DNA of 64,000 bases, from NCBI GenBank assembly GCA_964386715.1, contig CAYLTD010000008.1, positions 57,123 through 121,122 on the forward strand, given 5' to 3'. Below, piece after piece: positions 28,402 to 64,000 of this stretch. The stretch comes from an uncultured Bifidobacterium sp. (GTDB lineage: Bacteria; Acidobacteriota; Vicinamibacteria; Vicinamibacterales; CAVVIG01). The notes below the pieces were generated by a model. The model worked only from the letters and a program-made list of their open reading frames with translations. It did no database searches and was not told the DNA's origin. The position numbers and the translations under genes are program-made. Position 1 is the first letter of the stretch. The number at the start of each line of letters is the position of its first letter.

Positions 28402-28404
28402 GAC

Positions 28405-34913: not shown

Positions 34914-35037
34914 TCCGCACCCCGTCCGCCCGCGCTCGCGAGCCACGTCACTCCCTCACAGGGTGCCCGGCCCGCGCCGCCCCGGCCACACGCTGACCGC
35001 CGCAGCGCTTTTTACATCCCGCGTCTATACTCCCCGC

Positions 35038-37085: not shown

Positions 37086-37090
37086 GGCCG

Positions 37091-38029: not shown

Positions 38030-38069
38030 GTCCGAGTGCTGTCGAGGGTCCGCTGCCTGACGTCGCGCG

Positions 38070-39161: not shown

Positions 39162-39251
39162 CGAAACGATTCCTCCGGCCATGCCTGCTGGCAGGTCACT
39201 CCTGCCGCGCACGGACCCAGCTGGAAGTGTGTAACGACGTTAGGCGCAACG

Positions 39252-47592: not shown

Positions 47593-48339
47593 TCACGCGG
47601 CCCACGATCCGTTCCGGTAGAGCGTCAGGGCGACATCGACATTGGCGCGCAGGGCGGCCGCGATGGCGTCCCAGTGTTTCTCGCAGCGCAGGAGCGTCTT
47701 CCACGAGTACAGGTGCTTCGCCTTGTGGAAGTCGCTGTTGGCGACATACGGGTAGTGCTTGAGGCTGGTCACCGAGAACAGGTCGTCGCGGTTCGCCGCC
47801 TCCCACACGTCGACCAGGTCGACGAGTTTCCTGCGGTTGTCCCACAGGAAGCAGGTGCTGATCTCGATGCGCCGGGTGGTCCGGTGATGAGGATGGCAGG
47901 CGATGCTCAGCGCGCCCTGCCGCCGGATCTCCTCGAGGATCTCGCGCGCCGGCTGGTCCGCGCTGATCCACTCCTTGATGCCGAGCGCGATGATGTGCGA
48001 GTTCTTGCGGCTGCGGAAGTGGTTCTGCGTGACCTCGGCTCCAGGAATCACGAGCAGGTCGTACAGCTTCCTCGCGCGCTTCGCCTCGGCGTGAATCTCC
48101 TCCAGGTAGGCGTCGAACCGCTCCCGGGTCACCGAGAAATGTCGGCGGCCGAGCGACATCAGGCGCCCCGCGCGCCCCAGCACGTCGCGCTGCATCAGGA
48201 TGTGGTCGGTGATCGCGATGACATCGAAGCGGCCGGTCGAGCCGTACAGGTCCACCACCTCGCGCAGCGACAGGCGGCCGTCGCTCCACGACGTGTGCAC
48301 GTGGAAGTCGCAGAGCAGGAATGGCTCGTAGCCCGGCAT
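47593..48339 (-). CDS. PHP-domain metal-dependent phosphoesterase
   Basis: CDFHVHTSWSDG, IAITDH and ACHPHH motifs. Starts 1 nt after the GT2 stop. Confidence 0.8.
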   Translation of the reverse strand: MPGYEPFLLCDFHVHTSWSDGRLSLREVVDLYGSTGRFDVIAITDHILMQRDVLGRAGRLMSLGRRHFSVTRERFDAYLEEIHAEAKRARKLYDLLVIPGAEVTQNHFRSRKNSHIIALGIKEWISADQPAREILEEIRRQGALSIACHPHHRTTRRIEISTCFLWDNRRKLVDLVDVWEAANRDDLFSVTSLKHYPYVANSDFHKAKHLYSWKTLLRCEKHWDAIAAALRANVDVALTLYRNGSWAA

Positions 48340-48340
48340 G

Positions 48341-49072
48341 TCAGGCCCTCACGTCCACATGGGTCCGGTCGGAAGGACGGTGGCGGAGGATCTCCGACCA
48401 GAAGTTCCGCACGTAGAGCCCGAACACCTGTCGCTTGCCCATCGCGCGATACCGCCGTGCCGACGTCCACACCCAGCACTCACCGGCCAGTTCCACGCGG
48501 CCCACCGGCGTCAGCCGGCGCCCCAGATTGGTGTCCTCGCCGTGGAACTCGATCGAGCAGTCGAACCCGCCGATAGCGGCCAGCGCCTCGCGACGGACCG
48601 CGAAGTTGCCGCCGTACAACACCGCCCCCAGCCCCAGCACGCGGTGCACGAGCGCGTGCGTCGGCGGCGCGACCAGCACGTCGTAGAGCCGAATCAGCGC
48701 GCGGCCCAGCAGGTCCCAGTCGTAGAAGCGGTAGGGGCCGGTCACCGCGACGGCGGCGGGACGTTGCCCGAGTCGTGCGACCACCCGCTCGAGCCACACC
48801 GGCGGCACGCGGCAGTCCGCGTCCACGTAGGCCAACAGGTCACCGGTCGACGCCCGACGCCCCGCTTCGCGGGCGATCACCAGCCCCTTGCGCGGCTCGT
48901 CCACCACCGTGATGCCGGGAATCGCGCGTGCCACGGCGCCGGTCGCATCCGTGCTGGCGTTGTTCACGACGACGATCTCGTCCGGAAGCCGTGTCTGGGA
49001 GAGGAGGGAATGCAGGCAGGCGGGCAGGTAGTGCGCTTCGTTGAAGGCGCACACGATCACGCTCACCCGCAT
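48341..49072 (-). CDS. family 2 glycosyltransferase
   Basis: VSVIVCAFNEAHYLPACLHSLLSQT, a DxD-like YVDADC motif and GGNFAVRREAL. Confidence 0.9.
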   Translation of the reverse strand: MRVSVIVCAFNEAHYLPACLHSLLSQTRLPDEIVVVNNASTDATGAVARAIPGITVVDEPRKGLVIAREAGRRASTGDLLAYVDADCRVPPVWLERVVARLGQRPAAVAVTGPYRFYDWDLLGRALIRLYDVLVAPPTHALVHRVLGLGAVLYGGNFAVRREALAAIGGFDCSIEFHGEDTNLGRRLTPVGRVELAGECWVWTSARRYRAMGKRQVFGLYVRNFWSEILRHRPSDRTHVDVRA

Positions 49073-49263
49073 CAGTCGGCCCGCTCCACGCCGACAAGGT
49101 TATGGGCGCGGTGTAACGGATCGGCGGCGCGGATCGGTCAGTGGTGCAAACTCTTTGCGCCCCCCGACGTGAGGCGCGTCGACGTCGGGCGCGGCCCTTC
49201 GGCTGGCGGGGTCGATCGTCAGCCGGGATTCGGGCGCAGGCGCGCCAGGCCCGCGGATGCGGG

Positions 49264-49725
49264 CTACTGCGAGGTCTTGTCGATCGGGGCGAGAACGATG
49301 TACCAGCTCTCGCAGTCCATGGTGGAACCTCCGCCCATCGCGACCGTGAAGCGGAGGTTCAGCGACGGGATCTCCCATTCCCGGCGGGCGCGGGTGCCCT
49401 CCATCGGGACGCGGTAGGGCTTGAGCAGGTTCTCGGGCTGATCGTGTTCCCGGTGCTCGTCCTGCACGCCCTTGAAGATTGCGAACTCGCGCCTCGGGCC
49501 GAGGTGCACCTCGAACTGCGGCACGCCGTTCACGTAGTGGTCGTAAATCTTCTCGGCGTACCGGCCGTCACGCTGCTGGCACGACTGCCAGTTTCCCTCG
49601 AGGATGTTGCGGGGATCGCTGGTGTACGAGATCCACTCCTGGGCGGAGGCTGCGGGCGGACGCAGCAGTGTCAGCAGCGCGAGCATGCCTGCGGTCACGA
49701 GCGCCTGAGACAGCGGACGACCCAC
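49264..49725 (-). CDS. hypothetical secreted protein
   Basis: GTG start after GGGAGGGAG. Signal peptide ending ASAQE. No recognised domain. A hairpin at 49163..49189 lies downstream. Confidence 0.65.
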   Translation of the reverse strand: MGRPLSQALVTAGMLALLTLLRPPAASAQEWISYTSDPRNILEGNWQSCQQRDGRYAEKIYDHYVNGVPQFEVHLGPRREFAIFKGVQDEHREHDQPENLLKPYRVPMEGTRARREWEIPSLNLRFTVAMGGGSTMDCESWYIVLAPIDKTSQ

Positions 49726-51947: not shown

Positions 51948-53663
51948 ATGCGCCTGGCTGCCATAGACATCGGCACGAACTCGCTCCACATGATCGTGGT
52001 GCGCGTCCGGCCGGACCTCTCGTTCGAAATCATCGACCGTGAGAAGGAGATGGTGCGCCTGGGCGCCGGCGGGCTCGACGGGCGCGCGCTCACGCCGAAG
52101 GCGATGCAGTCGGCGCTGCAGGTGCTCTCGAAGTTCCGGCGCCTGGCCGAATCGCACCAGGTGGAACGCATCGAGGCGGTGGCGACCAGCGCCGTGCGCG
52201 AGGCCGAGAACGGCGGCGAGTTCCTGAAGGCGATCGTCGACCAGACGGGCATCCGGGCGCGCGTGATCTCGGGCCCCGAAGAGGCCCGCCTGATCCACCT
52301 GGCGGCGTCGTACGGGCTGGGCATCACCGGCGAGGTGACGGTGGCGGTGGACATCGGCGGCGGCAGCGTGGAGATCACGCACGGCACCGGATCGACACTC
52401 GGCGTCGGACGCAGCTTCAAGCTGGGCGTCATCCGGCTGAGCGAGCGCTTCGTCAAGTCGGACCCGATCTCGGCCCGCGACGAGCGGCGGCTGGTCCGGC
52501 ATATCCACACCGAACTCGGGCGTTACCTGAAGGAGATCGCGGCCACCGGCTTCGACCGCGTGATCGGCACGTCGGGCTCGATCCTGAGCGTCGGCACGAT
52601 CGCGGCGGCCGACGAAGATGGCGAGGTGCCGAGCGCCGTGCGCAACCGGCGCGTCTCGGCCAAGCAGATCCACCGCGTGCGCAAGACGCTGTGCGAGAGC
52701 AGCCTGCAGAAGCGCCTGCTCATCCCCGGGCTCGAACCGCGCCGGGCCGACATCGCCGTGGCGGGCGCAATCCTCATCGACACGGTCCTCAAGCGCCTCG
52801 GCGCCGAGGAGATCACGCTGTGCGACATGTCGCTGCGCGAGGGAATCATCCTCGACTACATCGCACGGCACCGCAAGGAGATCGCACAGGCGGAGCAGTA
52901 TCCCGACGTCCGGCGCCGCAGCGTGATCGAACTCGCCGAACGGTGCAACTACGCGGCGGACCACGCGCAGCAGATCGCGAAGATGTCGCTCGCCCTGTTC
53001 GACGCCACGCGCAGCGTGCACGTGCTCACCGACCGCGAGCGCGAGTGGCTGGAGTACGCGGCGCTGCTGCACGATGTGGGGGTCCACATCAGCTACGAGC
53101 GCCACCACAAGCACTCGTACTATCTGATTCGCAACGGCGACCTGCGCGGGTTCGAACCGATCGACGTCGAGACCATTGCGCTGATTGCCCGGTACCATCG
53201 CCGGGCGGTGCCCGAGCGCTCGCACCTCGCCTTCGGCGACCTGCCCAGGAAGCGGCGTCGGGTGGTGCGCGTCCTGTCGTCGATGCTGCGACTCGCCGAG
53301 ACCCTCGACCGCAGTCACGCCCAGCTGGTCACCGGCCTCTCGCTGCGCGACCGCGGCGAGGACATGATCCTCGAACTGCAAACCACGGGTGACGCGGAAC
53401 TCGAGCTGTGGGCCGGGTCGCGGCATGCCGCGCCATTCGAGCGCATGCTGGGCAAGCCGCTGCACATCGAGAGCGTCACGGTGGCGCGCTCCGACGAGGG
53501 CTCCCCCAGCGTCGCTCGTCCGGCGGGGGCCGCCTCGCCGCGCCGCCGCGTGGAACCGCTCGCGCCGCCCGCCCGCGAGTCCGCCGCGGACGCGTCGCGC
53601 GGCCGGGCGATCGCGCTGGTCGGCGGCCGTGGGCGGCGCACGCATCCCAGCGCCCGCGGCTGA
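51948..53663 (+). CDS. ppx: exopolyphosphatase / GppA-family phosphatase with C-terminal HD domain
   Basis: AAIDIGTNSLHMIV, DIGGGSVE and an HD region (LLHDVG). Pro/Arg-rich C-terminal tail. Confidence 0.9.
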   Translation: MRLAAIDIGTNSLHMIVVRVRPDLSFEIIDREKEMVRLGAGGLDGRALTPKAMQSALQVLSKFRRLAESHQVERIEAVATSAVREAENGGEFLKAIVDQTGIRARVISGPEEARLIHLAASYGLGITGEVTVAVDIGGGSVEITHGTGSTLGVGRSFKLGVIRLSERFVKSDPISARDERRLVRHIHTELGRYLKEIAATGFDRVIGTSGSILSVGTIAAADEDGEVPSAVRNRRVSAKQIHRVRKTLCESSLQKRLLIPGLEPRRADIAVAGAILIDTVLKRLGAEEITLCDMSLREGIILDYIARHRKEIAQAEQYPDVRRRSVIELAERCNYAADHAQQIAKMSLALFDATRSVHVLTDREREWLEYAALLHDVGVHISYERHHKHSYYLIRNGDLRGFEPIDVETIALIARYHRRAVPERSHLAFGDLPRKRRRVVRVLSSMLRLAETLDRSHAQLVTGLSLRDRGEDMILELQTTGDAELELWAGSRHAAPFERMLGKPLHIESVTVARSDEGSPSVARPAGAASPRRRVEPLAPPARESAADASRGRAIALVGGRGRRTHPSARG

Positions 53664-53750: not shown

Positions 53751-54770
53751 ATGCGACACACGTCGGCCCCGCGCACGCCCGACCTCCTGTACGGTTCCGA
53801 CCTGTCCGGCCTGGTCTGCGGCTACCGGTTCGAGGCCCTCGGGCGGGCGGAGCTGCTGGATTCCAGCGCGGCCGCGTCCTGGCTCGCCTCTGCCGACGCC
53901 GCCGGCTTCATCTGGCTGCACTTCAGCCTGTCGAACATCCAGGCGCGGCAGTGGCTGGAGACGCACGCGCGCCTGCCGGAGGAGTTCTACGAGCTGCTTG
54001 AGGAGAGCCCGACGACCCGGCTGGAGGTGGTCGGCGAATCGCTGCTGGCGGTGGTCAACGACGTCCAGTTCTTCGGTGCGGATCCGTCGTCGGTGTCGAG
54101 AGTGGCGCTGTACGTCGATGCCCGCGCGATGATCAGCGCGCGGACGACCCAGGTGCGAGCGGTCGATCGTCTGCGGACCGCCGTGAAGGAGGGCGAAGCC
54201 TTCCAGTCGTCCGCGGAACTGCTGGCGCACCTGCTGCGGGATCAGGCCGACGTCCTCGTCGGCATCGTGCGCGACGCCACGCGCCAGGTGGACGCGATCG
54301 AGGACCGGATTCTCGAAGCGGACACCTCCACGAGCCGCCCCCGGCTCGGTGCGCTGCGGCGCGTCCTGGTCCGGCTGCAGCGGCTGCTCGCGCCCGAACC
54401 GGCGGCGCTGTTCCGCCTGCTGAACCATCCACCCTCGTGGCTGTCCGCCGACGACGTGGCGCTGCTTCGCGGATCGGCCGAGGAACTGTCGGCGGCGGTG
54501 GCCGACGCGATGGCGCTGGCCGAGCGGGTTCGCCTGCTGCAGGAGGAACTGACGGCGCTGCTGAACGAGCGCACCAGCCGGACGCTGTTCATCCTGACCG
54601 TTGTGACGGCGCTCGGGCTCCCGCTCGCGATCGTGCCCGGCCTGTTCGGGATGAACGTCGACCACATCCCGTTCCGCGCCAGCCCGGCGGCGTTCTGGGC
54701 CATTGCGATGCTGGTGCTCTTTGTCCCGGCAGGGATCGTGGGCGTCTGGGCCTGGCGCGACCGCGCCTAG
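53751..54770 (+). CDS. CorA/ZntB-family divalent metal transporter
   Basis: C-terminal two TM segments with the GMN motif (LFGMNVDHIPF). Confidence 0.85.
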   Translation: MRHTSAPRTPDLLYGSDLSGLVCGYRFEALGRAELLDSSAAASWLASADAAGFIWLHFSLSNIQARQWLETHARLPEEFYELLEESPTTRLEVVGESLLAVVNDVQFFGADPSSVSRVALYVDARAMISARTTQVRAVDRLRTAVKEGEAFQSSAELLAHLLRDQADVLVGIVRDATRQVDAIEDRILEADTSTSRPRLGALRRVLVRLQRLLAPEPAALFRLLNHPPSWLSADDVALLRGSAEELSAAVADAMALAERVRLLQEELTALLNERTSRTLFILTVVTALGLPLAIVPGLFGMNVDHIPFRASPAAFWAIAMLVLFVPAGIVGVWAWRDRA

Positions 54771-56662
54771 GGCGCCGGCTCCAACGGCTGCGCCACAGGA
54801 CCGGCGGCCACTGCCAGGACATCGTCGAGCACCGCCTGCGCCACGTTCAGGGGGCGCATCATCGCGCGCTTCTTCGACTGGTGCGACTGCATCCGCGTCA
54901 GGATGTCGTCGAGCGTGCGGACCGCCTCGCGGATGAACGGGCCCTTGTTGAGCATCACGCACTCGGCCCGTTCCGACATCGCCGCGTCGGTCACCTCGGC
55001 CCGCGACGGCACACCGGTCTTGGCGAGCGTCTCGAGGACCTGTGTGGCCCAGATCACCGGCGCGTGCGCCGCCTCGGCGATCCACAGGATTTCCTCCTGT
55101 ATCTCGGCCATGCGTTCGTACCCGCACTCGACCGCGAGATCCCCACGCGCGATCATCACGCCGTAGCGGCCCGTGCGCATGCACGCCAGCAGGAGGCGCG
55201 GCAGTTCCTCGAAGGCCTGTCGCGTCTCGATCTTCAGGATGATGCCGAGCGCGTCGCCACCGAGGACGCGCAGGTGTTCCTGCAGCAGTTGCACGTCGCG
55301 CACGTGGCGTACGAACGAATACGCGACGAGATCGGCGTGGCGAACGACGAAACCTAGGTCGTCGAGGTCCTTGTCGGTGAGCGGCTTCAACCGCAGGGCG
55401 GTGTCGGGCAGGTTGATACCCTTGCCGGCCTGCAGTCGATCACCGCCGGGGCGCGCCTGGGTGATCTCGACCACCGCTCCGGGCCCCTCGACCTGCCGCA
55501 CGATTCCCCCAATCCGCCCGTCGTCGAACCAGATGCGTTCGCCGGCCTGCAGGTCGGCGAAGATCTCGGGCAGCGTCACGCCGATCTGCGCGGGGACGAT
55601 GACGCGTCCGCCGGCGTCCCGGGTCGCCGGGTGGCCCGCGGCGCCGTCGCCGGTGAGCACAAGGCGGTCACCCACTTCGAGCAGCAGCGCCTGCTGAGGA
55701 CGTGGCGTCTCGGCGATCCGGACAGCCTCCCACCCGCTCCGGCCCTGGTATCGCAGTTCGGAACCCGGAACGATGTAGGCCGAGTGCTCGAGGCTGGCGA
55801 TGAGCACGTCGCCGTGCCGGGCGACGACCCGCAGCGTGAGCGTGCGGTCCCGCGCATCGACGAGTGCGAGTCGTGTGCCTGCGACGACAGAGTCCGCCAC
55901 CGGTCGATCGATCACCACCATGTGGTCGGCGCCGGGGAACGCCTGCCGCAGGTGCCCGGCGTCGGTGATGGCGACATACGCGGGCGAAGCCAGGCGTCCC
56001 CACAGGTCGCGCCGCGGCTTGATCTTCTGCACGGCAGGGCCCGGCAGAAGGTCGCCGGTGCGCAGTTTCGGCCCGGCGAGGTCCATCGACACCGTGCACT
56101 CCCGCCGGACCTCTCCCGCGGCCCGGCGCAGGTGCGCGATCATCCGGCCCCATTCCTCCGGCCCGTCATGCGCGCAGTTGATCCGCATGCAGTCCATCCC
56201 GGCCGCGACCAGATCCCGCACGAACGTGTAGTCATGGGCGGCTTCGGTCGGCATCGTGACCATGATGCGGACCGGCCGGTGGTGCGGCCGCCGGCCGAAC
56301 AGCGCGTCGGCGTGCCGCGCCAGGAGGGCCGCCCCGTCCTGCAGCGTCGGCATGGCCTCGTCGGGCGGCACCCAGTCGTCGCCCGACATCAGCGCAAGGG
56401 CGCGGCGCACGGCGGTGAGCCCGTCTCTGACGTGCGACTCCGCCCGGCCCAGCGAGGACAGGCCCAGGGACGCCAGGCGGCGCTGTGCGTCGCGGAGGTC
56501 GACGCGGCGGAGTAGCAGGTAGTGGAGGAGGTTGGTTGCGCTGGGGATCTGACTGGCCGGCAGGCCGGCCAGGAACGACCCGCTGCTGCGGGTCACGCGC
56601 GCCATTGCGGCCTCGAGGGCCTCGAGTTCGCGGGCGAGGTCGTGGACGTCCATCGAGGACAT
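54767..56662 (-). CDS. atypical pyruvate-kinase-family protein
   Basis: PK barrel motifs MRINCAH, AGPKLRTG, KIETRQA, MIARGDLAVE, ATQVLETL and SRAEVTDAA. Extra ~130-aa N-terminus, enlarged lid and no C-terminal regulatory domain. Confidence 0.8.
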   Translation of the reverse strand: MSSMDVHDLARELEALEAAMARVTRSSGSFLAGLPASQIPSATNLLHYLLLRRVDLRDAQRRLASLGLSSLGRAESHVRDGLTAVRRALALMSGDDWVPPDEAMPTLQDGAALLARHADALFGRRPHHRPVRIMVTMPTEAAHDYTFVRDLVAAGMDCMRINCAHDGPEEWGRMIAHLRRAAGEVRRECTVSMDLAGPKLRTGDLLPGPAVQKIKPRRDLWGRLASPAYVAITDAGHLRQAFPGADHMVVIDRPVADSVVAGTRLALVDARDRTLTLRVVARHGDVLIASLEHSAYIVPGSELRYQGRSGWEAVRIAETPRPQQALLLEVGDRLVLTGDGAAGHPATRDAGGRVIVPAQIGVTLPEIFADLQAGERIWFDDGRIGGIVRQVEGPGAVVEITQARPGGDRLQAGKGINLPDTALRLKPLTDKDLDDLGFVVRHADLVAYSFVRHVRDVQLLQEHLRVLGGDALGIILKIETRQAFEELPRLLLACMRTGRYGVMIARGDLAVECGYERMAEIQEEILWIAEAAHAPVIWATQVLETLAKTGVPSRAEVTDAAMSERAECVMLNKGPFIREAVRTLDDILTRMQSHQSKKRAMMRPLNVAQAVLDDVLAVAAGPVAQPLEPAP

Positions 56663-57963: not shown

Positions 57964-59553
57964 TCAGCCCCGCTGACATCCCGGACGACCGGCCTCGACC
58001 ACGAGCGCGCCGGCGGTGCGCACCGGCAGGTCCGCCACCGTGACGCGGTCGACCACACGGAAATCGGCACGCATCGTCTGCTGTGTGGCAGTACAGGCGA
58101 CGTAGCCCCGCCGGTTGCTGTGGAACTGCACGTGCGGGTTGTCGCTGCGCGCGCGGTCCCAGTCGGGAGACGTCTCGCTGCCGTCGCCGTTCGACGTGAT
58201 CGCCGAGTTGGTGAACTCCACGCCGACGGTTGCGGACGACGGGTTCCGGAAGTCCATCTTCAGGTCGGCGCCCCAGTGCGTGTGGATGTCGCCGGAGAGG
58301 ATCACGGGATTGGGCGCCTTCGTGTCGCGGAGCATGCCGTACAGCCGATCGCGGGCGGGCGCATACCCGTCCCACGTATCCATCGAGAACTGCGCGTTGG
58401 GGTTCGCCCGGCTACGGTCGTACGCGAACGTGCACACTTGCTGCCCGAGCACCGTCCACCGGGCGCGTGCCTCGGCGAGGTTCCGGCCCACCCAGCGCTC
58501 CTGGACATCGCCGAGGATCGTCCGCGCCGGATCGTCCGCCTCGACGCACCCGGTCCGGAGGCCGTCGCCGCACGCCTGGTCCGAGCGCCACTGCCGGGTA
58601 TCGAGCACGCTCAGGTCGATCAGGTCGCCGAACCGGAGGCGACGATAGATCTGCATGTCGCCGCCGCGCGGCAGCGCCGTCGCGCGAATCGGCATCGACT
58701 CGTAGTAGGCCTGGTAGGCCGCGGCGCGCCGCAGCAGGAACAGCTCGGGTGGCGCCCCGTCCTCGCCCCGGTCACCGGCGTAGTTGTTGTCCACCTCGTG
58801 GTCGTCCCAGGTCACGATGAACGGCGCCGAGGCGTGCGCGGCCTTCAGGTGCGGGTCGGCCTTGTACAGCGCGTAGCGGTTGCGATAGTCGACGAGCGTG
58901 TAGATCTCGTTCCCGTTGTGGTGCCGCACGCGTACATCGCTGCTGCCGCCGTGGTCGCGGCCTTCGTAGATGTAGTCGCCGGTATGGAACACGAAGTCGA
59001 ACGCCTCGTCCGCGAGGTGCCCGAAGGCGGTGAAGTAGCCCTGCTCGTAGTGCTGGCAGCCGCACACGGCGAAACGGAGCTGGTCGACCCGCGTCCCTGC
59101 CGCCGGCGCGGTCCGCGTGCGCCCCACCTGGCTCGCTTCGTCGCCCGCGCGGAACCGGTAGAAGTAGTCGCGCCCGGGCTGGAGGCCGGCCACCTCCACG
59201 TGCACGCTGTGCCCGAGTTCAGGCCGCGCCTGCACGGTGCCACGCTGCACGACGGATCGGAACGACGCATCGTCGGCAATCGCCCAGTCCACGTCCACGA
59301 CGGCCGTCGGCATGCCGCCGCCATTCAGTGGATCAGGCGCGAGGCGGGTCCACAGCACCACGCCGTCGGGCGTCGGGTCGCCGGACGCCACGCCGAGCGT
59401 GAACGGATAGGCCGTGAAGATCGGTTTGCCCCAGAGCCGCTCGGCCGTGAAGGGCTGGGCGAGCACGCCCGCCCCGAGGATGCCGCCAAGCCGCAGCAGA
59501 TCACGCCGCGACAGGCGCTGCAGCGCGCGCGTGTAGAAGGTTCGCTGTGTCAT
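57964..59553 (-). CDS. phoD: alkaline phosphatase PhoD, Tat-exported
   Basis: Twin-arginine signal LSRRDLLRLGG. FTLGVASGDPTPDGVVLWTR and metallophosphatase core (WDDHEVDNNY, GDIHTHW). Confidence 0.9.
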   Translation of the reverse strand: MTQRTFYTRALQRLSRRDLLRLGGILGAGVLAQPFTAERLWGKPIFTAYPFTLGVASGDPTPDGVVLWTRLAPDPLNGGGMPTAVVDVDWAIADDASFRSVVQRGTVQARPELGHSVHVEVAGLQPGRDYFYRFRAGDEASQVGRTRTAPAAGTRVDQLRFAVCGCQHYEQGYFTAFGHLADEAFDFVFHTGDYIYEGRDHGGSSDVRVRHHNGNEIYTLVDYRNRYALYKADPHLKAAHASAPFIVTWDDHEVDNNYAGDRGEDGAPPELFLLRRAAAYQAYYESMPIRATALPRGGDMQIYRRLRFGDLIDLSVLDTRQWRSDQACGDGLRTGCVEADDPARTILGDVQERWVGRNLAEARARWTVLGQQVCTFAYDRSRANPNAQFSMDTWDGYAPARDRLYGMLRDTKAPNPVILSGDIHTHWGADLKMDFRNPSSATVGVEFTNSAITSNGDGSETSPDWDRARSDNPHVQFHSNRRGYVACTATQQTMRADFRVVDRVTVADLPVRTAGALVVEAGRPGCQRG

Positions 59554-59571
59554 CGTGTCTCCTTGACCGCG

Positions 59572-61917
59572 TCAGCGGGACGTATAGATGGCGCTCGAGA
59601 TGGCGGCAGGGCGGCCCGCGTGGTCGCGGACTATCACGGAGACCCAGTCACCAGGACGCAGCGTGCACGGCCGCGTCAGTTCGCCGGACACCGGAATGCC
59701 GACCGAGGCGAGCACGGCTCCGTTCAGGACCCAGTCCAGGCGTCCGGCGTCAGCACCCGAGATATGGACCCGCAGCGTCACGGCACCGGGCGCAATCTCG
59801 CCGCCCAGGCCGACGCGGTGTCCCTCCCGCTCGGCGCTGAGATCCAGCGCGGGTCCTGTCGCACCCTGGACCCGCACGTACGTGCGGCCGGCCCGCAGCG
59901 CGTCGACGATCGCCGGCTCCGTTCGATCCTCGGCAGACACCACCGTGGCAGGTCGCCCGACGGCCCGATCGCGGTCGTCGTCCGGCGTGTGATCGTCACT
60001 GCCGGCGACGGCCGCGAGCCGCGCACCCTCGTTCAGCCGCGAGGCCCAGAAGCGCCAGCCGGAGAGGTCGTCCGCATCCCCATTCACCACTTCCACGCCG
60101 TGGACGTGACGGAGTGTCGCCGGGTCCGTGTCGTTCCACCCGCAGCCCATGCAGCGCTCGTCGTCTGGCAACGCGGGATGGTTGATCGAGACGAATGCTC
60201 CGTCGGCTGCGATCGGCGCCAGCACGGCGGCGATCGAGATATCTGGTGTTGCGAGGCGGAACTCGTGGAAGCGCCGCTCGCCGACGATCGTCGCGTGCCC
60301 GCGGTAGGTCGTCAGCTCGCGACCATGGAGCAGCAGAAGCGGCGAATAGGCCGGCTGCAGGCGGTCGACCTCGAGCCAGTGGCTCACCGTGTTGTGGTCG
60401 GTCAATGCGACGAAGTCGAGCCGGGCGAGGCGGGCCGCATCGAACACGCTGGCAGGTGACGCGGGCACCCGCTCACCCCCTGCCTGGCTGCGCCCGTCGC
60501 TGTGACCTGAGTGGGTGTGCAGGTCGCCGACGTACCAGCCGGGCGTCCGGCTCACCACGGCGGGTCCGTTCACGGCCGGATCGAGGCGGATCCGCAATCG
60601 GTAACGATCCACTCGCCCCGGCCGGATGTTCGGCACGCCAAGCACCACCGCCCACTGGCCAGGCTCGATCCGGCCAGGAAGATACCCGTAGCTCGCTCCC
60701 AGTTCCGATACATTGATCGTCTGCGGTCCCCCGCCGCTCCAGCCCCGGAACCCTCCGGGCCCCCGCAAGCCGAGGTCGAGCACCGTGCGTTCGGCAGCGC
60801 CGGTGTAGTCGAGTGACACCTCGATGCGTTCCGTGCCGGGCGGCACCGTGAAGGCGCGCTCGAACAGCCGCTCGTAGTCATGCTCGGTGAGCTCGCCATC
60901 GATCGTGACCCACCGGCCGGCCGGCCGGGCGCCCTGGAGCACGTCGCCGAACTCCTCGTACTGGTCCGTGGCCACGAAGTCCACGCCGGCCGTGACGGCC
61001 GCCTTCCATCGCGCGGCCGCGGCCGCGGCCGAGCCGAAGTTGTACCCGGGGCTCCACCCGCCTGACCGGTCCGCGGGCTCGTGTCCGTTGAGCGTGTAGA
61101 ACCGGATCCAGAGACCCGCCCGGTGCGCGGCATCCACGATCTCGCGAAGGCGTCGATCGTCGTCACGGGTCCAGTCGCCCGCGCGGGGCTGACCACCGGG
61201 CTCGACCACCGACCACGGATTGTTCCACCAGCGGTGATAGTTGGTCCTGTGGCCGGGCGTCAGGTGAGCGAGGCCATCGGCGCCGACAGGCTGCGCGACC
61301 TCCGGGCGGGCGGCACCGAAGACCAGGAGCGATTCGCCCACCGGCACCGTGTCATGGAACACGCGGCGCTGCGTGTCCGACTCTCCCGTCAGGACCAGCA
61401 CCGGTCCCGGACTCAGGGGCTGGACGTCGTCCGCACGTGCGACCCGCGGGGCCGTGGTGAGCCAGGCGCGGTACTTCACCAGGAGCCCCCACACGGCGGC
61501 CAGGTGCTCCGGTTCCTCGGACTTGAAGTCCAGGTTCAAGGTGATGAGCGGCCACTCGTTCTTCCGGCCCTCACGAAGCGACGCCTCGACGATGGGGCGA
61601 ATGCGCTGGAAGAAGTGCCGCTCGAGGGTCGGCTCCGACCCGTCGAGGCCAAGGGCCGGGCGACCGGGTTCGTCGTGGGCGACGACGGACCACGACCGCC
61701 CGGTTCTCGGATCGGTGTACCAGATCAGATCCTGCTCCATGGCGAGCGGCGTACCCACGGCCAGCGCCCGTTCGATGCGGTCCGCCCATTCGCCGTGCGT
61801 CGGGTAGCAGTTGTGGGCGTCGAGCAGCACCCGGCTGCCCGGCTCCCACTGCGCGGAAGCCGGGCACGCGGCCAGGAGCGTCCCGGCTGCCACCGCGACC
61901 GTCAGGGCGGTGCGCAT
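59572..61917 (-). CDS. secreted fusion protein: PLC-like phosphodiesterase domain plus CehA/McbA-type PHP metallohydrolase domain
   Basis: N-terminal LLDAHNCYP...FVATDQYEEF (PI-PLC-like TIM barrel). C-terminal GDLHTHSGHSDG, ALTDHNT, GSDDH. The start overlaps the TBDR stop as TGATG. Confidence 0.8.
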   Translation of the reverse strand: MRTALTVAVAAGTLLAACPASAQWEPGSRVLLDAHNCYPTHGEWADRIERALAVGTPLAMEQDLIWYTDPRTGRSWSVVAHDEPGRPALGLDGSEPTLERHFFQRIRPIVEASLREGRKNEWPLITLNLDFKSEEPEHLAAVWGLLVKYRAWLTTAPRVARADDVQPLSPGPVLVLTGESDTQRRVFHDTVPVGESLLVFGAARPEVAQPVGADGLAHLTPGHRTNYHRWWNNPWSVVEPGGQPRAGDWTRDDDRRLREIVDAAHRAGLWIRFYTLNGHEPADRSGGWSPGYNFGSAAAAAARWKAAVTAGVDFVATDQYEEFGDVLQGARPAGRWVTIDGELTEHDYERLFERAFTVPPGTERIEVSLDYTGAAERTVLDLGLRGPGGFRGWSGGGPQTINVSELGASYGYLPGRIEPGQWAVVLGVPNIRPGRVDRYRLRIRLDPAVNGPAVVSRTPGWYVGDLHTHSGHSDGRSQAGGERVPASPASVFDAARLARLDFVALTDHNTVSHWLEVDRLQPAYSPLLLLHGRELTTYRGHATIVGERRFHEFRLATPDISIAAVLAPIAADGAFVSINHPALPDDERCMGCGWNDTDPATLRHVHGVEVVNGDADDLSGWRFWASRLNEGARLAAVAGSDDHTPDDDRDRAVGRPATVVSAEDRTEPAIVDALRAGRTYVRVQGATGPALDLSAEREGHRVGLGGEIAPGAVTLRVHISGADAGRLDWVLNGAVLASVGIPVSGELTRPCTLRPGDWVSVIVRDHAGRPAAISSAIYTSR

Positions 61918-64000
61918 CAGAAGTCCAGCCGCAGCGCGAACTGCATCGCCCGCGGGTCGCCCGCGACCGAGGTGATCGTGCCGACGGTGCCGCTGGCGAT
62001 GTTGGAGTCCGGCTGGCCGAAGTTGGCGCGGTTGAACGCATTGAACACGTCCCAGCGCAGCGTGAGTCCGGCTCGCGCGAGGAGGGGAATCCGCCGCTGC
62101 ACGCTCAGGTCCATCGTGGCGAAGCCGGGGCCGCGCACGATATTGCGGCCGGCGTTGCCGAAGGTGCCGGATGGAACGACCTGGAACGCTGCCACGTTGA
62201 ACCAGCTGTCCACCGTCTTGTTTCCCGTCGGGTCGCCGACCAGGTTCGGAATGCCCGTGGCGCCGAGCCCGACCACGTTGGTCCCCTGGGTCACCGTGAA
62301 GGGGCGTCCGGTTCGCGCGCTGAAGATCCCGCTGACGGTCCAGCCGCCCAGCACGGCGCCGCCGACTCCGTCCTGCATGAACGGCTTGTTACGGCCAAAC
62401 GGCAGCTCGAGCACGAAGTCCGTCGTGAGGCGGTGGCGGATGTCGAAGTCGCTCGGTCCTTCCCAAGCCTTCAGGTCGCGTCCGTTCTGCGGCCGGCCGG
62501 AGCCGGCGGCGAGATGCTCGGGGGCCTGATCGCGCGAGTTGCCGTAGGTGTACGAGACGCGATAGCTGTATCCGTCAGAGAAGCGACGCTGGAACGAGGT
62601 ATCCACGCCGTAGTAGCGCGACCGGCCCGACATTTCCCGCCACTGGATGTGGTTGAAGTTGGGGTACGGCAGCGGTCCGTTCGCGTCGAGCGTGCCGCGC
62701 AGCGGCTGATTGAGGTTACGCAGGACGGCGATGTTCCGCCCGAGGTTCCCGACAACGTCGACCGAGGCGGAAAAGGCGCGACCGATCTGGTGCTCGATGC
62801 CGCCGCTGAACTGGTGGAAGAGCGCGTCCGGTGCATTGCGGTCGGCGGCACGGATCAGCAGGTTGCGTGTGTTGATGTTCGAGACGTCGAGGAAGTTGGA
62901 CGGGAACCCGTCTCGCAGCAGGAGCACCGGCGTCGTTGCGGACCCGGTCTGGAGGTTGATGTTGCGGAGGTTCGGCGGGTTGAGGGCGATCTGGTCCTCG
63001 GACCCGATGCGATCGAACAGGTTGTAGAAGACCCCGTAGCCGCCGCGCAGGACCGTGCGTTCGGACAACCCGTAGACGACGCCGACGCGCGGCGCGATGT
63101 TGTTGCGGTCCGGCGTGATGAGGGCCCGGTCGGCCAGGGACCCGTCCTTGGCGTACACCAGGCCGCCGACGGCCGGATCGAAGTTCGCCATCTGGTTCCC
63201 GGCTTCGTACGCGGGCGTCATGAAGTCGTACCGGACGCCAAGGTTCACCGTCAGCCGGTCGGTTACCCGCCAGTCGTCCTGAGCGAAGAAGCCCGTGGAC
63301 CAGTGCCGCTGGTTGACGACGAACACGTTGGAGAGTTCGGCCGTGCGCGCGTAGCCGAGCAGGAAGTCGGCGATGGCGTTCCCGGTGAACTGGCCGCTGA
63401 ACTGGAGGTTGCCGCGCGTGGACGGGATGTCGAGGTAGCGGTTCCGCATCGGCGCCATGATGTCGGCGCCGAACTTCCACTGATGGCGGCCGCGCAGCCA
63501 CGAGAGGGTGTCGACCCACTGCACCTGATCGGTCCGCTGGAACTTGGGCATGAAGTTCGGCGACCCGAGGCGTGCGTGCCCGGCGATATCGATGCCGACG
63601 ATCCCGCCAAGGATGGTGGGGTCGGCCGGGACGCCTTTGAACCCGATCTGGTCGAGGCCGTTGTTCCCGAACGGCAACTGCTGCCCGTCCGAGCGGCCCT
63701 GCGCCCACGACACGCGCAACTCGTTGACCATGGCGCTGCCGAGCACCTTCGTGTAGCCGCCGACGAGCGCCTGCGAGTCGAGGAAGTTGCGCCCCCAGGC
63801 CGACGTGGACGTGCCGTCGAGGACGCCGCCGAGGAACCCTGGCACCTCGCGCGTGCGCTTCGTTCGGATGTAGCGTACGAACAGGTTGTCGGCGCCGCCC
63901 ACCCGCAGGTCGGATCGCCCGAGGAACCGATCGCCGTCATCGGCGACGTTTGGCTGCACGAAGTAGTTGTTGTTGCCGGTGGTGTTGGGCAGCGGCAGCA
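61917..64000 (-). CDS. TonB-dependent receptor, C-terminal ~690 aa (5' end beyond the window)
   Basis: The reading frame stays open to the window edge. Beta-barrel repeats. C-terminal MQFALRLDF. Confidence 0.85.
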   Translation of the reverse strand, partial: LPLPNTTGNNNYFVQPNVADDGDRFLGRSDLRVGGADNLFVRYIRTKRTREVPGFLGGVLDGTSTSAWGRNFLDSQALVGGYTKVLGSAMVNELRVSWAQGRSDGQQLPFGNNGLDQIGFKGVPADPTILGGIVGIDIAGHARLGSPNFMPKFQRTDQVQWVDTLSWLRGRHQWKFGADIMAPMRNRYLDIPSTRGNLQFSGQFTGNAIADFLLGYARTAELSNVFVVNQRHWSTGFFAQDDWRVTDRLTVNLGVRYDFMTPAYEAGNQMANFDPAVGGLVYAKDGSLADRALITPDRNNIAPRVGVVYGLSERTVLRGGYGVFYNLFDRIGSEDQIALNPPNLRNINLQTGSATTPVLLLRDGFPSNFLDVSNINTRNLLIRAADRNAPDALFHQFSGGIEHQIGRAFSASVDVVGNLGRNIAVLRNLNQPLRGTLDANGPLPYPNFNHIQWREMSGRSRYYGVDTSFQRRFSDGYSYRVSYTYGNSRDQAPEHLAAGSGRPQNGRDLKAWEGPSDFDIRHRLTTDFVLELPFGRNKPFMQDGVGGAVLGGWTVSGIFSARTGRPFTVTQGTNVVGLGATGIPNLVGDPTGNKTVDSWFNVAAFQVVPSGTFGNAGRNIVRGPGFATMDLSVQRRIPLLARAGLTLRWDVFNAFNRANFGQPDSNIASGTVGTITSVAGDPRAMQFALRLDF

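What the first reader, a model, noticed from the sequence alone, without database searches (positions are those of the whole stretch)
57964..64000. TBDR - PLC-like/PHP fusion - PhoD operon
Three same-strand genes are tightly packed: a TGATG overlap at 61917 and an 18-bp gap at 59554..59571. They encode an outer-membrane TBDR, a 781-aa secreted protein and a Tat-exported PhoD. The 781-aa protein fuses a PI-PLC-like phosphodiesterase barrel to a CehA/McbA-type PHP trinuclear-metal hydrolase. The layout resembles a polysaccharide-utilisation locus, but for phosphoesters: degrade outside, import, then dephosphorylate. I do not recognise the PLC plus PHP fusion as a characterised enzyme.
Basis: partly seen in the sequence, partly recalled or inferred. 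Interest (0 to 1): 0.55.

Follow-up and report, generated by a model that had tools for sequence, protein, structure and literature searches.

The report
TonB receptor with two-step phosphoesterase
A soil bacterium, probably an acidobacterium, couples an outer-membrane importer to an uncharacterised two-enzyme fusion protein and a PhoD phosphatase, inside a large cluster of phosphate-starvation genes, so this is most likely an unstudied way of extracting phosphate from organic phosphodiesters.

Summary
Three minus-strand genes are tightly packed: a TonB-dependent receptor (61917..>64000, cut by the window edge), a 781-aa Sec-exported protein (59572..61917) and a Tat-type PhoD (57964..59553). 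The TGATG overlap and the 18-bp gap are as described.

The C-terminal half of the 781-aa protein is a clear CehA/McbA-type PHP metallohydrolase. The N-terminal 310 residues match no Pfam or PDB sequence. AlphaFold models them as a TIM barrel. Their conserved motifs line up with GDPD/PI-PLC catalytic motifs, but only weakly in statistical terms.

The conserved core across genomes is receptor + PHP module + N module. The two modules occur fused in either order, or as neighbouring genes. PhoD itself is conserved only in close relatives. Elsewhere PhoA, PhoX or NPP takes its place: 9 of 11 fusion loci have such a gene nearby.

The window also carries phoBR-like genes, pstSCA, a second receptor–GDPD pair and Ppx.

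Best reading: import first, then periplasmic diester-to-monoester-to-phosphate hydrolysis. This is an acidobacterial counterpart of the Flavobacterium "phosphate utilisation systems". In some lineages the same module sits with mannosidases, a true PI-PLC and inositol catabolism genes, which hints at inositol-phosphoglycan substrates. It is a new variant of a known kind, of moderate interest.

The parts
61917..64000 (-). TonB-dependent outer-membrane receptor. It is C-terminally complete, but its N terminus lies beyond the window edge (full length 1076 aa, with CarboxypepD_reg and Plug domains, in L001:1834-5064).
   Evidence: Pfam OMP_b-brl_4 4.9e-184 and TonB_dep_Rec_b-barrel 2.9e-08. The full gene and its domains are seen on same-organism contig L001.
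59572..61917 (-). 781-aa exported fusion protein: signal peptide, GDPD/PLC-like TIM barrel, beta-sandwich, PHP metallohydrolase, C-terminal beta-sandwich. Its start codon overlaps the receptor's stop codon (TGATG).
   Evidence: More than 500 homologues, none characterised.
61849..61917 (-). Sec-type signal peptide (aa 1-23, MRTALTVAVAAGTLLAACPASA|Q).
   Evidence: Read directly from the sequence. Homologues have AxA cleavage sites and no conserved lipobox cysteine.
60913..61848 (-). N module (aa 24-335): predicted TIM barrel with conserved H35-N36, E61-x-D63, H81, D130-x-K132 and a C-terminal G-V-D-F-V-A-T-D-x-Y. It is a putative metal-dependent phosphodiesterase of the GDPD/PLC-like superfamily. 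No Pfam model covers it.
   Evidence: No Pfam hit. AlphaFold pLDDT about 84-90. Foldseek hits to GDPD 3mz2/5t9c and to Ca-dependent PI-PLC 5fyo, but also to DHPS, all at TM about 0.45. Conserved columns. hhalign against GDPD gives E 0.0022 with motifs in register. Weak GDPD/GDPD_2 hits in 3 of 20 family members.
60553..60912 (-). Beta-sandwich domain (aa 336-455) that always travels with the PHP domain; possibly a binding module.
   Evidence: Strands in the model. tblastn matches of stand-alone PHP modules start at about aa 337-352. Invariant G341, F356, W422 and others.
59866..60552 (-). PHP (polymerase/histidinol-phosphatase) catalytic domain of CehA/McbA type. It has H467-x-H469, D474, D507-H508, E534, H541, H580 and D641-x-H643, plus a conserved E-x-C-x-G-C-x-W insert.
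   Evidence: NCBIfam NF038032 219 bits. Profile hit to PDB 3e38 at 6.2e-10 with all motifs aligned. Foldseek 3e38 at 8e-13. Invariant columns.
59575..59865 (-). C-terminal beta-sandwich (aa 685-781), part of the CehA/McbA domain model.
   Evidence: weak BiPBP_C-like hit; all-beta in the model.
57964..59553 (-). PhoD alkaline phosphatase/phosphodiesterase with a twin-arginine signal. It lies 18 bp after the fusion gene and has an AAGGAG ribosome-binding site.
   Evidence: Pfam PhoD 2.7e-109 and PhoD_N 7e-35. NCBIfam PhoD 2.3e-190, below its strict cutoff. Sequence.
51948..53663 (+). Ppx/GppA exopolyphosphatase. A second paralogue lies divergently upstream of the receptor, just outside the window.
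   Evidence: Pfam annotation on L001. tblastn 31% identity between the two paralogues.
31630..35976 (+). Second receptor-plus-phosphodiesterase pair in the same window: TonB-dependent receptor 31630..34788, then a canonical GDPD at 34963..35976.
   Evidence: tblastn. Pfam GDPD 1.4e-49.
36246..39212 (-). pstS-pstC-pstA high-affinity phosphate ABC transporter genes.
   Evidence: NCBIfam PstS 423.6 bits, PstC 291.4 and PstA 296.1, all above their cutoffs.
25922..28401 (+). PhoB-like response regulator and PhoR/PnpS-like histidine kinase.
   Evidence: The best NCBIfam hits are PhoB (1.3e-69) and PnpS/PhoR (1.2e-101 / 6e-90), below the equivalog cutoffs.

Best explanation
The three genes form one transcription unit belonging to a phosphate-starvation gene neighbourhood.

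**Proposed steps**
1. The TonB-dependent receptor imports an organic phosphodiester across the outer membrane.
2. In the periplasm, the N-terminal GDPD/PLC-like TIM barrel of the 781-aa enzyme cleaves the diester bond. Proposed roles: His35/His81 as acid-base pair; Asn36, Glu61, Asp63 and Asp130 as a divalent-metal site; Lys132 on the phosphate.
3. The PHP domain, with its multi-metal His/Asp/Glu site, removes the phosphate from the resulting monoester or cyclic phosphate.
4. Tat-exported PhoD mops up other esters.
5. PstSCA takes up the released phosphate.

**Shown here:** gene order and overlap, domain identities, intact conserved residues, export signals, conservation of the receptor-PHP-N-module core, and recurrent neighbourhood with unrelated phosphatase families.

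**Inferred:** co-transcription, Pho control, periplasmic location, the division of labour between the two domains, and the substrate.
For: **Packing and signals**
- The TGATG overlap and the 18-bp gap are real.
- The receptor's end coordinate equals the fusion's start coordinate (the genes abut or overlap) in L088 and in the P0023 locus too.
- The fusion has a Sec signal and PhoD has a Tat signal.

**Domains**
- PHP domain: NF038032 at 219 bits. All metal-ligand motifs align to 3e38 and are invariant in 47 homologues.
- N module: confident TIM-barrel model. Its conserved polar residues sit at the C-terminal ends of strands. GDPD and PI-PLC are among the top Foldseek hits. The GDPD profile alignment puts HN/HR, ExD and H(D) in register.

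**The two modules are functionally tied**
- Fused N-to-C in the window and in more than 100 listed homologues.
- Fused C-to-N in P0104, P0106, P0108 and P0113.
- Encoded by adjacent genes in Acidobacteriaceae.
- A bona fide PI-PLC-C1 gene sits between receptor and PHP module in Xanthomonadales.
- The N module is also found fused to GDPD (P0129).

**Phosphorus context**
- A receptor lies directly upstream of the PHP module in 33 of 53 loci.
- Of 11 fusion loci with annotated neighbours, 9 have a phosphatase or diesterase nearby: PhoD in 3, PhoA in 5, NPP in 1. One further locus has PhoU.
- PhoX and NPP follow the stand-alone PHP module in L011/L012.
- The window itself holds phoBR-like genes, a Pit-like gene, a receptor-GDPD pair, pstSCA and Ppx.

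**Precedent:** Pi-induced receptor + periplasmic diesterase + monoesterase loci in Flavobacterium (PMC8115612).
Against: - The N module has no significant HMM or profile match to any phosphodiesterase family. The structural matches are weak (TM about 0.45), and dihydropteroate synthase barrels score as well as GDPD.
- The name-giving members of the PHP subfamily, CehA and McbA, hydrolyse a carbamate ester, not a phosphoester (PMC8292978).
- No Pho box could be recognised, and the promoter/terminator scans were uninformative at 70% GC.
- In several lineages the PHP module sits with glycosidases and inositol catabolism genes rather than phosphatases. Phosphate scavenging may therefore not be the ancestral or only role.
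- There is no expression or biochemical data.
Confidence: 0.6

Rival explanations
1. The core (receptor + N module + PHP module) is specialised for glycosylated inositol-phosphate head groups. Candidates are fungal or plant glycosyl-inositol-phosphoceramides, actinobacterial phosphatidylinositol mannosides and GPI anchors. The N module would cut the phosphodiester and the PHP domain would act as an inositol-phosphate or cyclic-phosphate phosphatase. Glycosidases and the iol pathway would consume the rest. In the window's lineage the system would be used mainly for phosphorus.
For: - **Sphingomonas plasmid:** RpiR regulator, receptor, PHP module and GH92, followed by iolG/C/D/E/B.
- **L019:** receptor, GH38, PHP module and N module on one strand.
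- **L065:** receptor, PI-PLC-C1, PHP module, GH92, N module and an iolG-like gene.
- **L041/L043:** receptor, PHP module and GH38.
- **NAGLU** (alpha-N-acetylglucosaminidase) lies next to the PHP module in L045, L060 and L079.
- **PI-PLC-C1** lies directly upstream of the PHP module in 6-7 proteobacterial loci, with a GDSL lipase autotransporter downstream in 4 of them.
Against: - No glycosidase or iol gene is near the fusion in the window, nor in the 11 fusion loci inspected.
- The glycosidase associations cover only about 10 of about 85 loci, and no single neighbour family dominates.
- Mannosidases would fit phosphomannan equally well, and NAGLU would fit teichoic acids.
Confidence: 0.2
2. 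The system scavenges nucleic-acid fragments. The receptor imports oligonucleotides, and the PHP domain acts as an exonuclease or nucleotide phosphatase like TrpH/RNase AM and pAp phosphatases. PhoD and the N module finish the job.
For: - Weak NCBIfam similarity of the first PHP motif to RNase RNM and to 3',5'-nucleoside bisphosphate phosphatase (E about 4e-3).
- JGI names some homologues 'TrpH'.
- NPP nucleotide pyrophosphatases and a 5'-nucleotidase occur in some neighbourhoods.
- An S1/P1 nuclease lies near the Novosphingobium copy.
Against: - The similarity to the nuclease-type PHP families is limited to the HxH motif region and is far below their cutoffs.
- The partner domain resembles GDPD/PLC enzymes, which act on lipid head groups and polyol phosphates, not nucleases.
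- True PI-PLC and GDSL lipase partners point to lipids.
Confidence: 0.07
3. The PHP module is not a phosphoesterase at all. It would be a carboxyl or carbamate ester, or amide, hydrolase like the carbaryl hydrolases CehA/McbA. The locus would then serve uptake and hydrolysis of some non-phosphorus ester.
For: - The only biochemically studied members of NF038032 hydrolyse carbaryl, using histidines of the PHP domain (PMC8292978).
- A GDSL esterase autotransporter lies next to the module in Xanthomonadales.
Against: - Phosphatases of four unrelated families recur as neighbours, together with PhoU, PstS and GDPD.
- The window is a phosphate-acquisition island.
- Established knowledge of the PHP superfamily: it is overwhelmingly phosphoesterases, and carbaryl is a recent xenobiotic, so that activity is probably secondary.
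- No plasmid-borne CehA/McbA-family protein shares the N module.
Confidence: 0.06
4. The adjacency of PhoD to the other two genes is incidental, and the three genes are not a functional unit.
For: - PhoD was not found by tblastn in any of the 80 species-representative loci.
- The third gene differs between lineages.
Against: - The 18-bp spacing with a ribosome-binding site and no detectable terminator.
- PhoD is again adjacent in the 73% relative L087 and convergent in the 60% relative P0005.
- Replacement by PhoA, PhoX or NPP at the same place is the pattern expected for a functional slot, not for chance.
Confidence: 0.05

Closest known systems
Phosphate utilisation systems (PUS; PusCD loci) of Flavobacterium johnsoniae (Lidbury et al. 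2021, PMC8115612)
   Same: An outer-membrane TonB-dependent transporter is co-localised with periplasmic phosphodiesterases and a phosphomonoesterase. The logic is to import organic phosphorus and then hydrolyse it in the periplasm.
   Different: - The window has no SusD-like lipoprotein partner.
- The receptor family differs (CarboxypepD_reg + OMP_b-brl_4, typical of Acidobacteriota).
- The hydrolase here is a single fusion of an unclassified GDPD/PLC-like barrel with a CehA/McbA-type PHP domain, which is not among the Flavobacterium enzymes.
- Induction by phosphate depletion is not shown here.
Glycerophosphodiester phosphodiesterases (GDPD, PF03009: E. coli GlpQ/UgpQ, B. subtilis GlpQ 5t9c), which in B. 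subtilis work with PhoD on teichoic acid during phosphate starvation
   Same: - TIM barrel.
- His, Glu-x-Asp and His(Asp) motifs, and a C-terminal G-x-D-x-h-x-T-D strand, in the same order and register.
- Periplasmic or extracellular location.
- Partnership with PhoD (from established knowledge of B. subtilis).
   Different: - There is no Pfam GDPD hit for the window protein.
- His-Asn replaces His-Arg in the first motif, as in PI-PLCs.
- Structural similarity is only TM about 0.45-0.55.
- It is fused to a PHP domain.
- A canonical GDPD is encoded elsewhere in the same window, so the two are not redundant copies.
Ca2+-dependent bacterial PI-PLC (PF16670; Streptomyces antibioticus PLC1 3h4x, Pseudomonas 5fyo)
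   Same: - Shared motif style: [AT]-H-N-x-Y after strand 1, L-E-x-D-h-W, and S/T-D-Y at the C terminus.
- In Xanthomonadales a true PF16670 gene occupies the slot between receptor and PHP module.
   Different: - The profile-profile comparison is not significant (probability 1.6%).
- In L065 both a PF16670 gene and an N-module gene are present, so they are not simple substitutes.
CehA/McbA carbaryl hydrolases and NCBIfam NF038032
   Same: - The PHP domain scores 219 bits against a cutoff of 80.
- The critical histidines of McbA (467, 477, 504) lie at positions similar to the window protein's H467/H469/H508 (PMC8292978).
- All are exported.
   Different: - The known substrate is a xenobiotic carbamate.
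- Sequences of the characterised enzymes were not available for comparison.
- None of the plasmid-borne family members found shares the N module.
- The genomic context here is phosphate acquisition.
BVU_3505 of Bacteroides vulgatus (PDB 3e38), a structural-genomics PHP protein of unknown function
   Same: It is the closest solved structure to the PHP part (profile E 6.2e-10; Foldseek 8e-13), with all metal-binding motifs aligned.
   Different: It has no N module, about 20% identity, and no assigned function, so it gives no functional transfer.

Membership tests
PHP superfamily, CehA/McbA subfamily (NCBIfam NF038032) | HMM score above the curated cutoff. | tested here: met
   219 bits against a cutoff of 80, covering residues 460-779 and model positions 1-314 of 315.
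PHP superfamily, CehA/McbA subfamily (NCBIfam NF038032) | PHP metal-ligand motifs: HxH, (D)H, E, H, H, DxH. | tested here: met
   H467, H469, D507-H508, E534, H541, H580 and D641-H643 are invariant in 47 homologues and align with the motifs of 3e38.
PHP superfamily, CehA/McbA subfamily (NCBIfam NF038032) | Metal-dependent hydrolase activity, and the substrate. | not testable with these tools
   Needs an enzyme assay.
PLC-like phosphodiesterase superfamily (GDPD PF03009, PI-PLC-C1 PF16670, PI-PLC-X) | Significant match to a family HMM. | tested here: not met
   - No Pfam hit for residues 1-340 even at E<=10.
- Only 3 of 20 family members give weak hits (E about 1e-3) to GDPD or GDPD_2. In the one member whose hit positions were read (P0164) the hits cover only the C-terminal strand.
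- No PDB sequence hit for the profile.
PLC-like phosphodiesterase superfamily (GDPD PF03009, PI-PLC-C1 PF16670, PI-PLC-X) | Profile-profile homology. | tested here: inconclusive
   - Against a 16-sequence PI-PLC-C1 profile: probability 1.6%, with only 20 C-terminal columns aligned.
- Against a 6-sequence GDPD profile: E 0.0022, probability 13%.
PLC-like phosphodiesterase superfamily (GDPD PF03009, PI-PLC-C1 PF16670, PI-PLC-X) | (beta/alpha)8 TIM-barrel fold. | tested here: met
   - AlphaFold models have alternating strand and helix elements: pLDDT 83.8 for the domain alone and 87.8 for the full protein.
- All Foldseek PDB hits are TIM barrels, including GDPDs 3mz2, 1zcc, 5t9c and 2oog and the PI-PLC 5fyo. 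Dihydropteroate synthases score as well.
PLC-like phosphodiesterase superfamily (GDPD PF03009, PI-PLC-C1 PF16670, PI-PLC-X) | Catalytic constellation in order: His after strand 1, Glu-x-Asp on strand 2, a second His after a hairpin, an acidic/Lys pair on strand 3, and a C-terminal G-x-D-x-h-x-T-D. | tested here: met
   - H35-N36, E61-x-D63, H81, D130-x-K132 and G311-V-D-F-V-A-T-D318 are conserved across the family.
- They are placed in register with the GDPD HR, ExD, HD and terminal strand in the relaxed alignment.
- This is a qualitative match, not a statistical one.
PhoD alkaline phosphatase (PF09423) | PhoD and PhoD_N domains above the gathering score, and a twin-arginine signal. | tested here: met
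   365.9 and 119.9 bits. SRRDLL motif at residues 15-20.
TonB-dependent receptor | N-terminal plug plus a 22-strand barrel. | tested here: met
   The barrel is in the window. The Plug and CarboxypepD_reg domains are on the full gene in L001.
Pho-controlled organophosphate utilisation locus (PUS-like) | Outer-membrane TonB-dependent transporter co-localised with a phosphodiesterase and a phosphomonoesterase. | tested here: met
   The window operon. The pattern recurs with PhoA, PhoX or NPP in relatives.
Pho-controlled organophosphate utilisation locus (PUS-like) | SusD-like surface lipoprotein partner (PusD). | tested here: not met
   There is no gene between or beside the receptor and the fusion. 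The fusion lacks a conserved lipobox.
Pho-controlled organophosphate utilisation locus (PUS-like) | Induction by phosphate depletion, or a PhoB binding site. | tested here: inconclusive
   - Blocks are conserved in the receptor's upstream region between L001 and L087 (GCAAACAC..TGTAA, GCGTTAC.CCGGAATTGCACG), but no recognisable Pho box.
- PhoU is divergent from the receptor in L088.
- Expression is not testable here.

The most novel reading that the evidence does not exclude
Receptor + N module + PHP module is a previously unrecognised, widely distributed bacterial system. It occurs in Acidobacteriota, Caulobacterales, Sphingomonadales and Xanthomonadales. It would import and dismantle glycosylated inositol-phosphate head groups of eukaryotic and actinobacterial membrane lipids (GIPC, PIM, GPI). 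The N module would define a new family of the PLC-like superfamily, and the PHP module would be a new periplasmic inositol-phosphate or cyclic-phosphate phosphatase. Acidobacteria would use it for phosphorus and sphingomonads for carbon.
Probability: 0.2. Interest if true: 0.75.

Novelty: new variant of a known kind. Interest (0 to 1): 0.5.

Why it matters
Organic phosphorus turnover in soil is usually inventoried by counting phoA, phoD, phoX, GDPD and phytase genes. This fusion, and its split versions, would be invisible to such surveys.

- **Why it is invisible:** the N module has no Pfam model, and the PHP module is named after pesticide hydrolases.
- **How common it is:** These lie mainly in Acidobacteriota, one of the most abundant soil phyla.
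- **If the two-step mechanism is right:** it adds a new enzyme class and a receptor-coupled uptake route to the soil phosphorus cycle. It would also extend the "PUL for phosphorus" concept from Bacteroidetes to Acidobacteriota and Proteobacteria.
- **A testable lead:** the recurrent link with PI-PLC, mannosidases and inositol catabolism points towards bacterial use of inositol-phospholipid head groups.

Tried and rejected
**Searches for a family match to the N module**
- Single-sequence Pfam and NCBIfam scans of the N module found nothing.
- PDB sequence searches with the single protein and with two profiles found only PHP hits. Nothing matched the N module.
- hhalign against a single PI-PLC-C1 sequence, against a 16-sequence PI-PLC-C1 profile, and in forced global mode were all non-significant or empty.
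- The exhaustive profile search of 1.84 billion representatives returned only the family itself. The weak tail (E 1e-10 to 1e-3) is not listed, so no bridge to known families could be read.

**Structure comparison**

**Lipoprotein idea**
- A surface-lipoprotein reading (LLAAC in the signal peptide) was rejected, because the cysteine is absent from most homologues.

**Comparison with CehA/McbA**
- I asked whether CehA/McbA share the whole architecture. No plasmid-borne family member matches the N module, but the characterised enzymes themselves were not retrieved. This remains open.

**Regulation**
- The Pho-box search by aligning upstream regions found conserved blocks but no recognisable PhoB site.
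- Promoter and terminator scans were uninformative.

**Neighbour enrichment**
- A bulk Pfam scan of 112 flanking genes found no dominant partner beyond FecR. This shows that the accessory genes are lineage-specific.

**Literature**
- Searches for the family, or for a PHP/TonB/Pho connection, returned nothing relevant.

Full report
**1. Observation**

The minus strand of 57964..64000 carries three ORFs in series.

- **Receptor.** It ends at 61917 and reads open to the window edge. Pfam gives OMP_b-brl_4 at 4.9e-184. Contig L001, from the same organism, shows the full 1076-aa gene with CarboxypepD_reg and Plug domains.
- **781-aa ORF (59572..61917).** Its ATG shares the A of the receptor's TGA, read as cttcTGATGcgc.
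- **PhoD (57964..59553).** It follows after 18 bp containing AAGGAG. Pfam gives PhoD 2.7e-109 and PhoD_N 7e-35. It carries an SRRDLL twin-arginine motif.

No terminator-like site beyond chance lies between the genes, although that scan is weak at 70% GC.

**2. Anatomy of the 781-aa protein**

- **PHP part.** NCBIfam places residues 460-779 in the CehA/McbA metallohydrolase domain, at 219 bits against a cutoff of 80. A 47-sequence profile hits the PHP protein 3e38 at 6.2e-10. The HxH, DH, E, GH, HP and DxH motifs are all aligned and invariant.
- **Full-length model.** AlphaFold with that alignment gives mean pLDDT 87.8. It shows a signal peptide, an alternating strand/helix domain (about 30-330), a beta-sandwich (336-450), the PHP barrel (460-680) and a C-terminal beta-sandwich. 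Foldseek finds 3e38 at 8e-13.
- **Export.** The N terminus is a Sec signal ending ASA|Q. Homologues have AxA sites, and the cysteine is not conserved, so this is not a lipoprotein.

**3. Is the N module PI-PLC-like?**

Sequence tests fail.
- No Pfam hit at E<=10.
- No PDB sequence hit with a 20-sequence profile.
- hhalign against PI-PLC-C1 gives probability 1.6% or less.
- The exhaustive profile search finds a compact family of its own, 685 clusters.

Four things speak for the PLC-like/GDPD superfamily.
- **(a) Fold.** The domain model (pLDDT 83.8) is a TIM barrel. Its Foldseek hits include GDPDs (3mz2 at 2.7e-5, 5t9c, 1zcc, 2oog) and the Ca-dependent PI-PLC 5fyo. However, TM is only about 0.45-0.55, and dihydropteroate synthases score as well.
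- **(b) Conserved residues.** The family's conserved polar residues are H35-N36, E61-x-D63, H81, D130-x-K132 and the terminal G-V-D-F-V-A-T-D-Q-Y. In the model they lie at the C-terminal ends of strands 1-3 and 8.
- **(c) Register with GDPD.** A relaxed hhalign against a small GDPD profile gives E 0.0022 and probability 13%. It aligns these motifs with the GDPD HR(G), ExD, HD and terminal G-x-D-x-x-x-T-D over 265 columns. Three of 20 family members give weak GDPD or GDPD_2 hits; in the one member checked (P0164) they fall on the last strand. The [AT]-H-N-x-Y and L-E-x-D-h-W patterns also resemble PI-PLC-C1.
- **(d) Context.** See section 4.

I therefore accept "GDPD/PLC-like phosphodiesterase barrel" as the most likely identity. 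Family membership is unproven.

**4. Comparative genomics**

More than 500 homologues exist. All are unnamed or called CehA/McbA or TrpH. A scan of species-representative genomes, followed by tblastn and a crude gene map, shows the following.

- **Fusion in the window's order.** It occurs in Sulfopaludibacter, Vicinamibacterales and many metagenomic relatives.
- **Reverse-order fusions.** PHP then N, in P0104, P0106, P0108 and P0113.
- **Separate genes.** Acidobacteriaceae have two adjacent genes, the PHP module followed by the N module. Other Acidobacteriota have separated genes (L011-L013, L068, L085).
- **PHP module alone.** This is seen in Caulobacterales, Sphingomonadales and Xanthomonadales.

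Fusion in both orders plus adjacency is strong evidence that the two modules work together.

A receptor sits directly upstream of the PHP module in 28 of 53 loci, and with one gene between in 5 more. The receptor's end coordinate equals the fusion's start coordinate in L088 and in the P0023 locus too.

**5. The third gene**

PhoD was absent from all 80 species-representative loci. The slot itself is conserved, though. For fusion loci with annotated neighbours:

| Locus | Neighbour |
|---|---|
| Window / L001 | PhoD |
| L087 (73% identity) | PhoD |
| P0005 | PhoD (convergent), plus PstS |
| P0006, P0010 | PhoA upstream of the receptor |
| P0017 | PhoA |
| P0003 | PhoA |
| L090 / L007 | PhoA, plus GDPD, LMWPc and PhoX |
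| P0023 | NPP |
| L088 | PhoU, divergent from the receptor |
| L089 | none adjacent (a PF04185 phospholipase C about 5 kb away) |

That is 9 of 11 with a phosphatase or diesterase from unrelated families. Stand-alone PHP modules are followed by PhoX, and by a second receptor-NPP pair, in L011/L012. Non-orthologous replacement in one slot argues for function, not chance.

**6. The window itself is a phosphate island**

| Coordinates | Gene(s) | Evidence |
|---|---|---|
| 25922..28401 | PhoB-like regulator and PhoR/PnpS-like kinase | |
| 28405..29397 | Pit-like transporter | |
| 31630..34788, then 34963..35976 | Receptor, then a canonical GDPD (1.4e-49) | |
| 39212..36246 | pstS, pstC, pstA, all above NCBIfam cutoffs | |
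| 40520..42883 and 43176..46424 | Two more receptors | |
| 51948..53663 | Ppx/GppA | |

A second Ppx lies divergently upstream of the finding's receptor. The second receptor-GDPD pair shows that this organism repeatedly pairs TonB receptors with phosphodiesterases.

**7. Mechanism**

The best-supported account is import of an organic phosphodiester by the receptor, followed by hydrolysis in the periplasm.
- The GDPD/PLC-like barrel would cleave the diester.
- The PHP site would remove the phosphate from the monoester or cyclic phosphate.
- PhoD would give additional hydrolysis.
- Pst would take up the phosphate.

Both catalytic domains are on one Sec-exported, non-lipoprotein chain whose gene overlaps the stop codon of the receptor gene.

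The concept matches the Pi-induced PUS loci of Flavobacterium (PMC8115612). Those pair a transporter with periplasmic diesterases and PhoA. This locus differs in having no SusD-like partner and a different, uncharacterised hydrolase. I put confidence at about 0.6.

Co-transcription, Pho control, location and substrate are all inferred. Conserved upstream blocks exist between L001 and L087, but no recognisable Pho box.

**8. What substrate?**

This is unknown. One recurring hint points to inositol-phosphoglycans.
- In Xanthomonadales and one other proteobacterial MAG, a true Ca-dependent PI-PLC (PF16670, 1.6e-114) lies between receptor and PHP module. It is often followed by a GDSL lipase autotransporter.
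- GH38 or GH92 alpha-mannosidases flank the module in L018, L019, L041, L043, L065 and a Sphingomonas plasmid. On that plasmid iolG, iolC, iolD, iolE and iolB follow.
- NAGLU flanks it in three loci.
- L019 reads receptor, GH38, PHP module, N module. L065 reads receptor, PI-PLC, PHP module, GH92, N module, iolG-like gene.

This fits head groups of GIPC, PIM or GPI lipids. Phosphomannan and teichoic acids are alternatives. None of these genes is near the fusion in the window, and no neighbour family dominates overall. I give this specific reading about 0.2.

Nucleic-acid scavenging and a non-phosphorus esterase role (by analogy with carbaryl hydrolases, PMC8292978) are less likely, given the partner domain and the neighbourhoods.

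**9. Verdict**

The locus is a new variant of a known kind: a TonB-coupled organophosphate utilisation locus built around an uncharacterised, widespread two-module hydrolase whose N module lacks any family model. Interest is moderate (0.5). It is directly testable by simple enzymology and is relevant to soil phosphorus cycling. It is not a surprise in principle.

The organism is probably an acidobacterium related to Vicinamibacterales. I infer this only from the best receptor and PHP-module matches, at 55-65% identity.

Noticed in passing
window 31630..35976 (+): A second TonB-dependent receptor (31630..34788) is immediately followed by a canonical GDPD glycerophosphodiesterase (34963..35976, Pfam 1.4e-49). 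This is a parallel receptor-plus-phosphodiesterase pair in the same window.
   Followed up: partly
window 25922..29397 and 36246..39212: PhoB-like regulator, PhoR/PnpS-like kinase, a Pit-like transporter and pstS-pstC-pstA are all present. No pstB or phoU was identified next to pstA, where the GDPD gene sits on the other strand.
   Followed up: partly
window 51948..53663 (+) and L001:173-1735 (-): Two Ppx/GppA paralogues, only about 31% identical, flank the region. One is divergently transcribed from the receptor of the finding. The same Ppx-receptor arrangement is kept in L087.
   Followed up: partly
L087:1867-2238: In the 73%-identical relative, the receptor gene between Ppx and the fusion is reduced to a 123-aa C-terminal remnant (OMP_b-brl_4). 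This is either a deletion or an assembly artefact.
   Followed up: no
L001:1736-1833 versus L087:1728-1866: The region upstream of the receptor has conserved blocks (ATCGTACCCCAA; GCAAACAC..TGTAA; GCGTTAC.CCGGAATTGCACG..CGTGA). They could be a regulator binding site. They do not resemble the E. coli Pho box.
   Followed up: partly
L025, L028, L029, L039, L040, L045, L049, L060, L079 (e.g. L040:4804-6141, minus strand): A conserved protein of about 446 aa, with no Pfam or NCBIfam match, lies upstream of the receptor in nine Acidobacteriaceae loci, divergently transcribed in most. It is an unknown partner of the system.
   Followed up: partly
proteins P0129, P0125, P0128, P0133, P0203: The N module is also found fused to other domains: a canonical GDPD domain (P0129), beta-propeller-like regions (P0125 DUF6454; a sub-threshold YNCE-like hit in P0128), a Peptidase_S51 domain (P0133) and polyphosphate-kinase C-terminal fragments (P0203).
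   Followed up: partly
proteins P0332, P0342, P0355, P0368 and others: Many Ca-dependent PI-PLC (PF16670) proteins of sphingomonads are fused to a PAP2 phosphatase domain (PF01569). This is another diesterase-plus-monoesterase fusion, analogous in logic to the one studied here.
   Followed up: no
L044, L046, L050, L053, L059, L067, L078 (Caulobacter and relatives); L092 (Novosphingobium): In Caulobacterales the receptor-PHP-module pair is preceded by FecR anti-sigma genes, in most of these loci together with an ECF sigma gene. This implies cell-surface signalling control rather than, or in addition to, Pho control. In the Novosphingobium locus L092 the same pattern is inferred only from gene sizes.
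   Followed up: partly
window 54767..56662 (-): A long (631-aa) pyruvate kinase of the PRK14725 type (764 bits) overlaps the end of a CorA-family gene (53751..54770). It sits between the Ppx gene and the PhoD operon. A CorA gene is also next to the receptor in the P0005 locus.
   Followed up: no
window 39299..40393 (-) and 48338..49417 (+): Two ORFs of about 360 aa have no Pfam or NCBIfam match. The first sits between pstS and a TonB-dependent receptor, inside the phosphate island.
   Followed up: no
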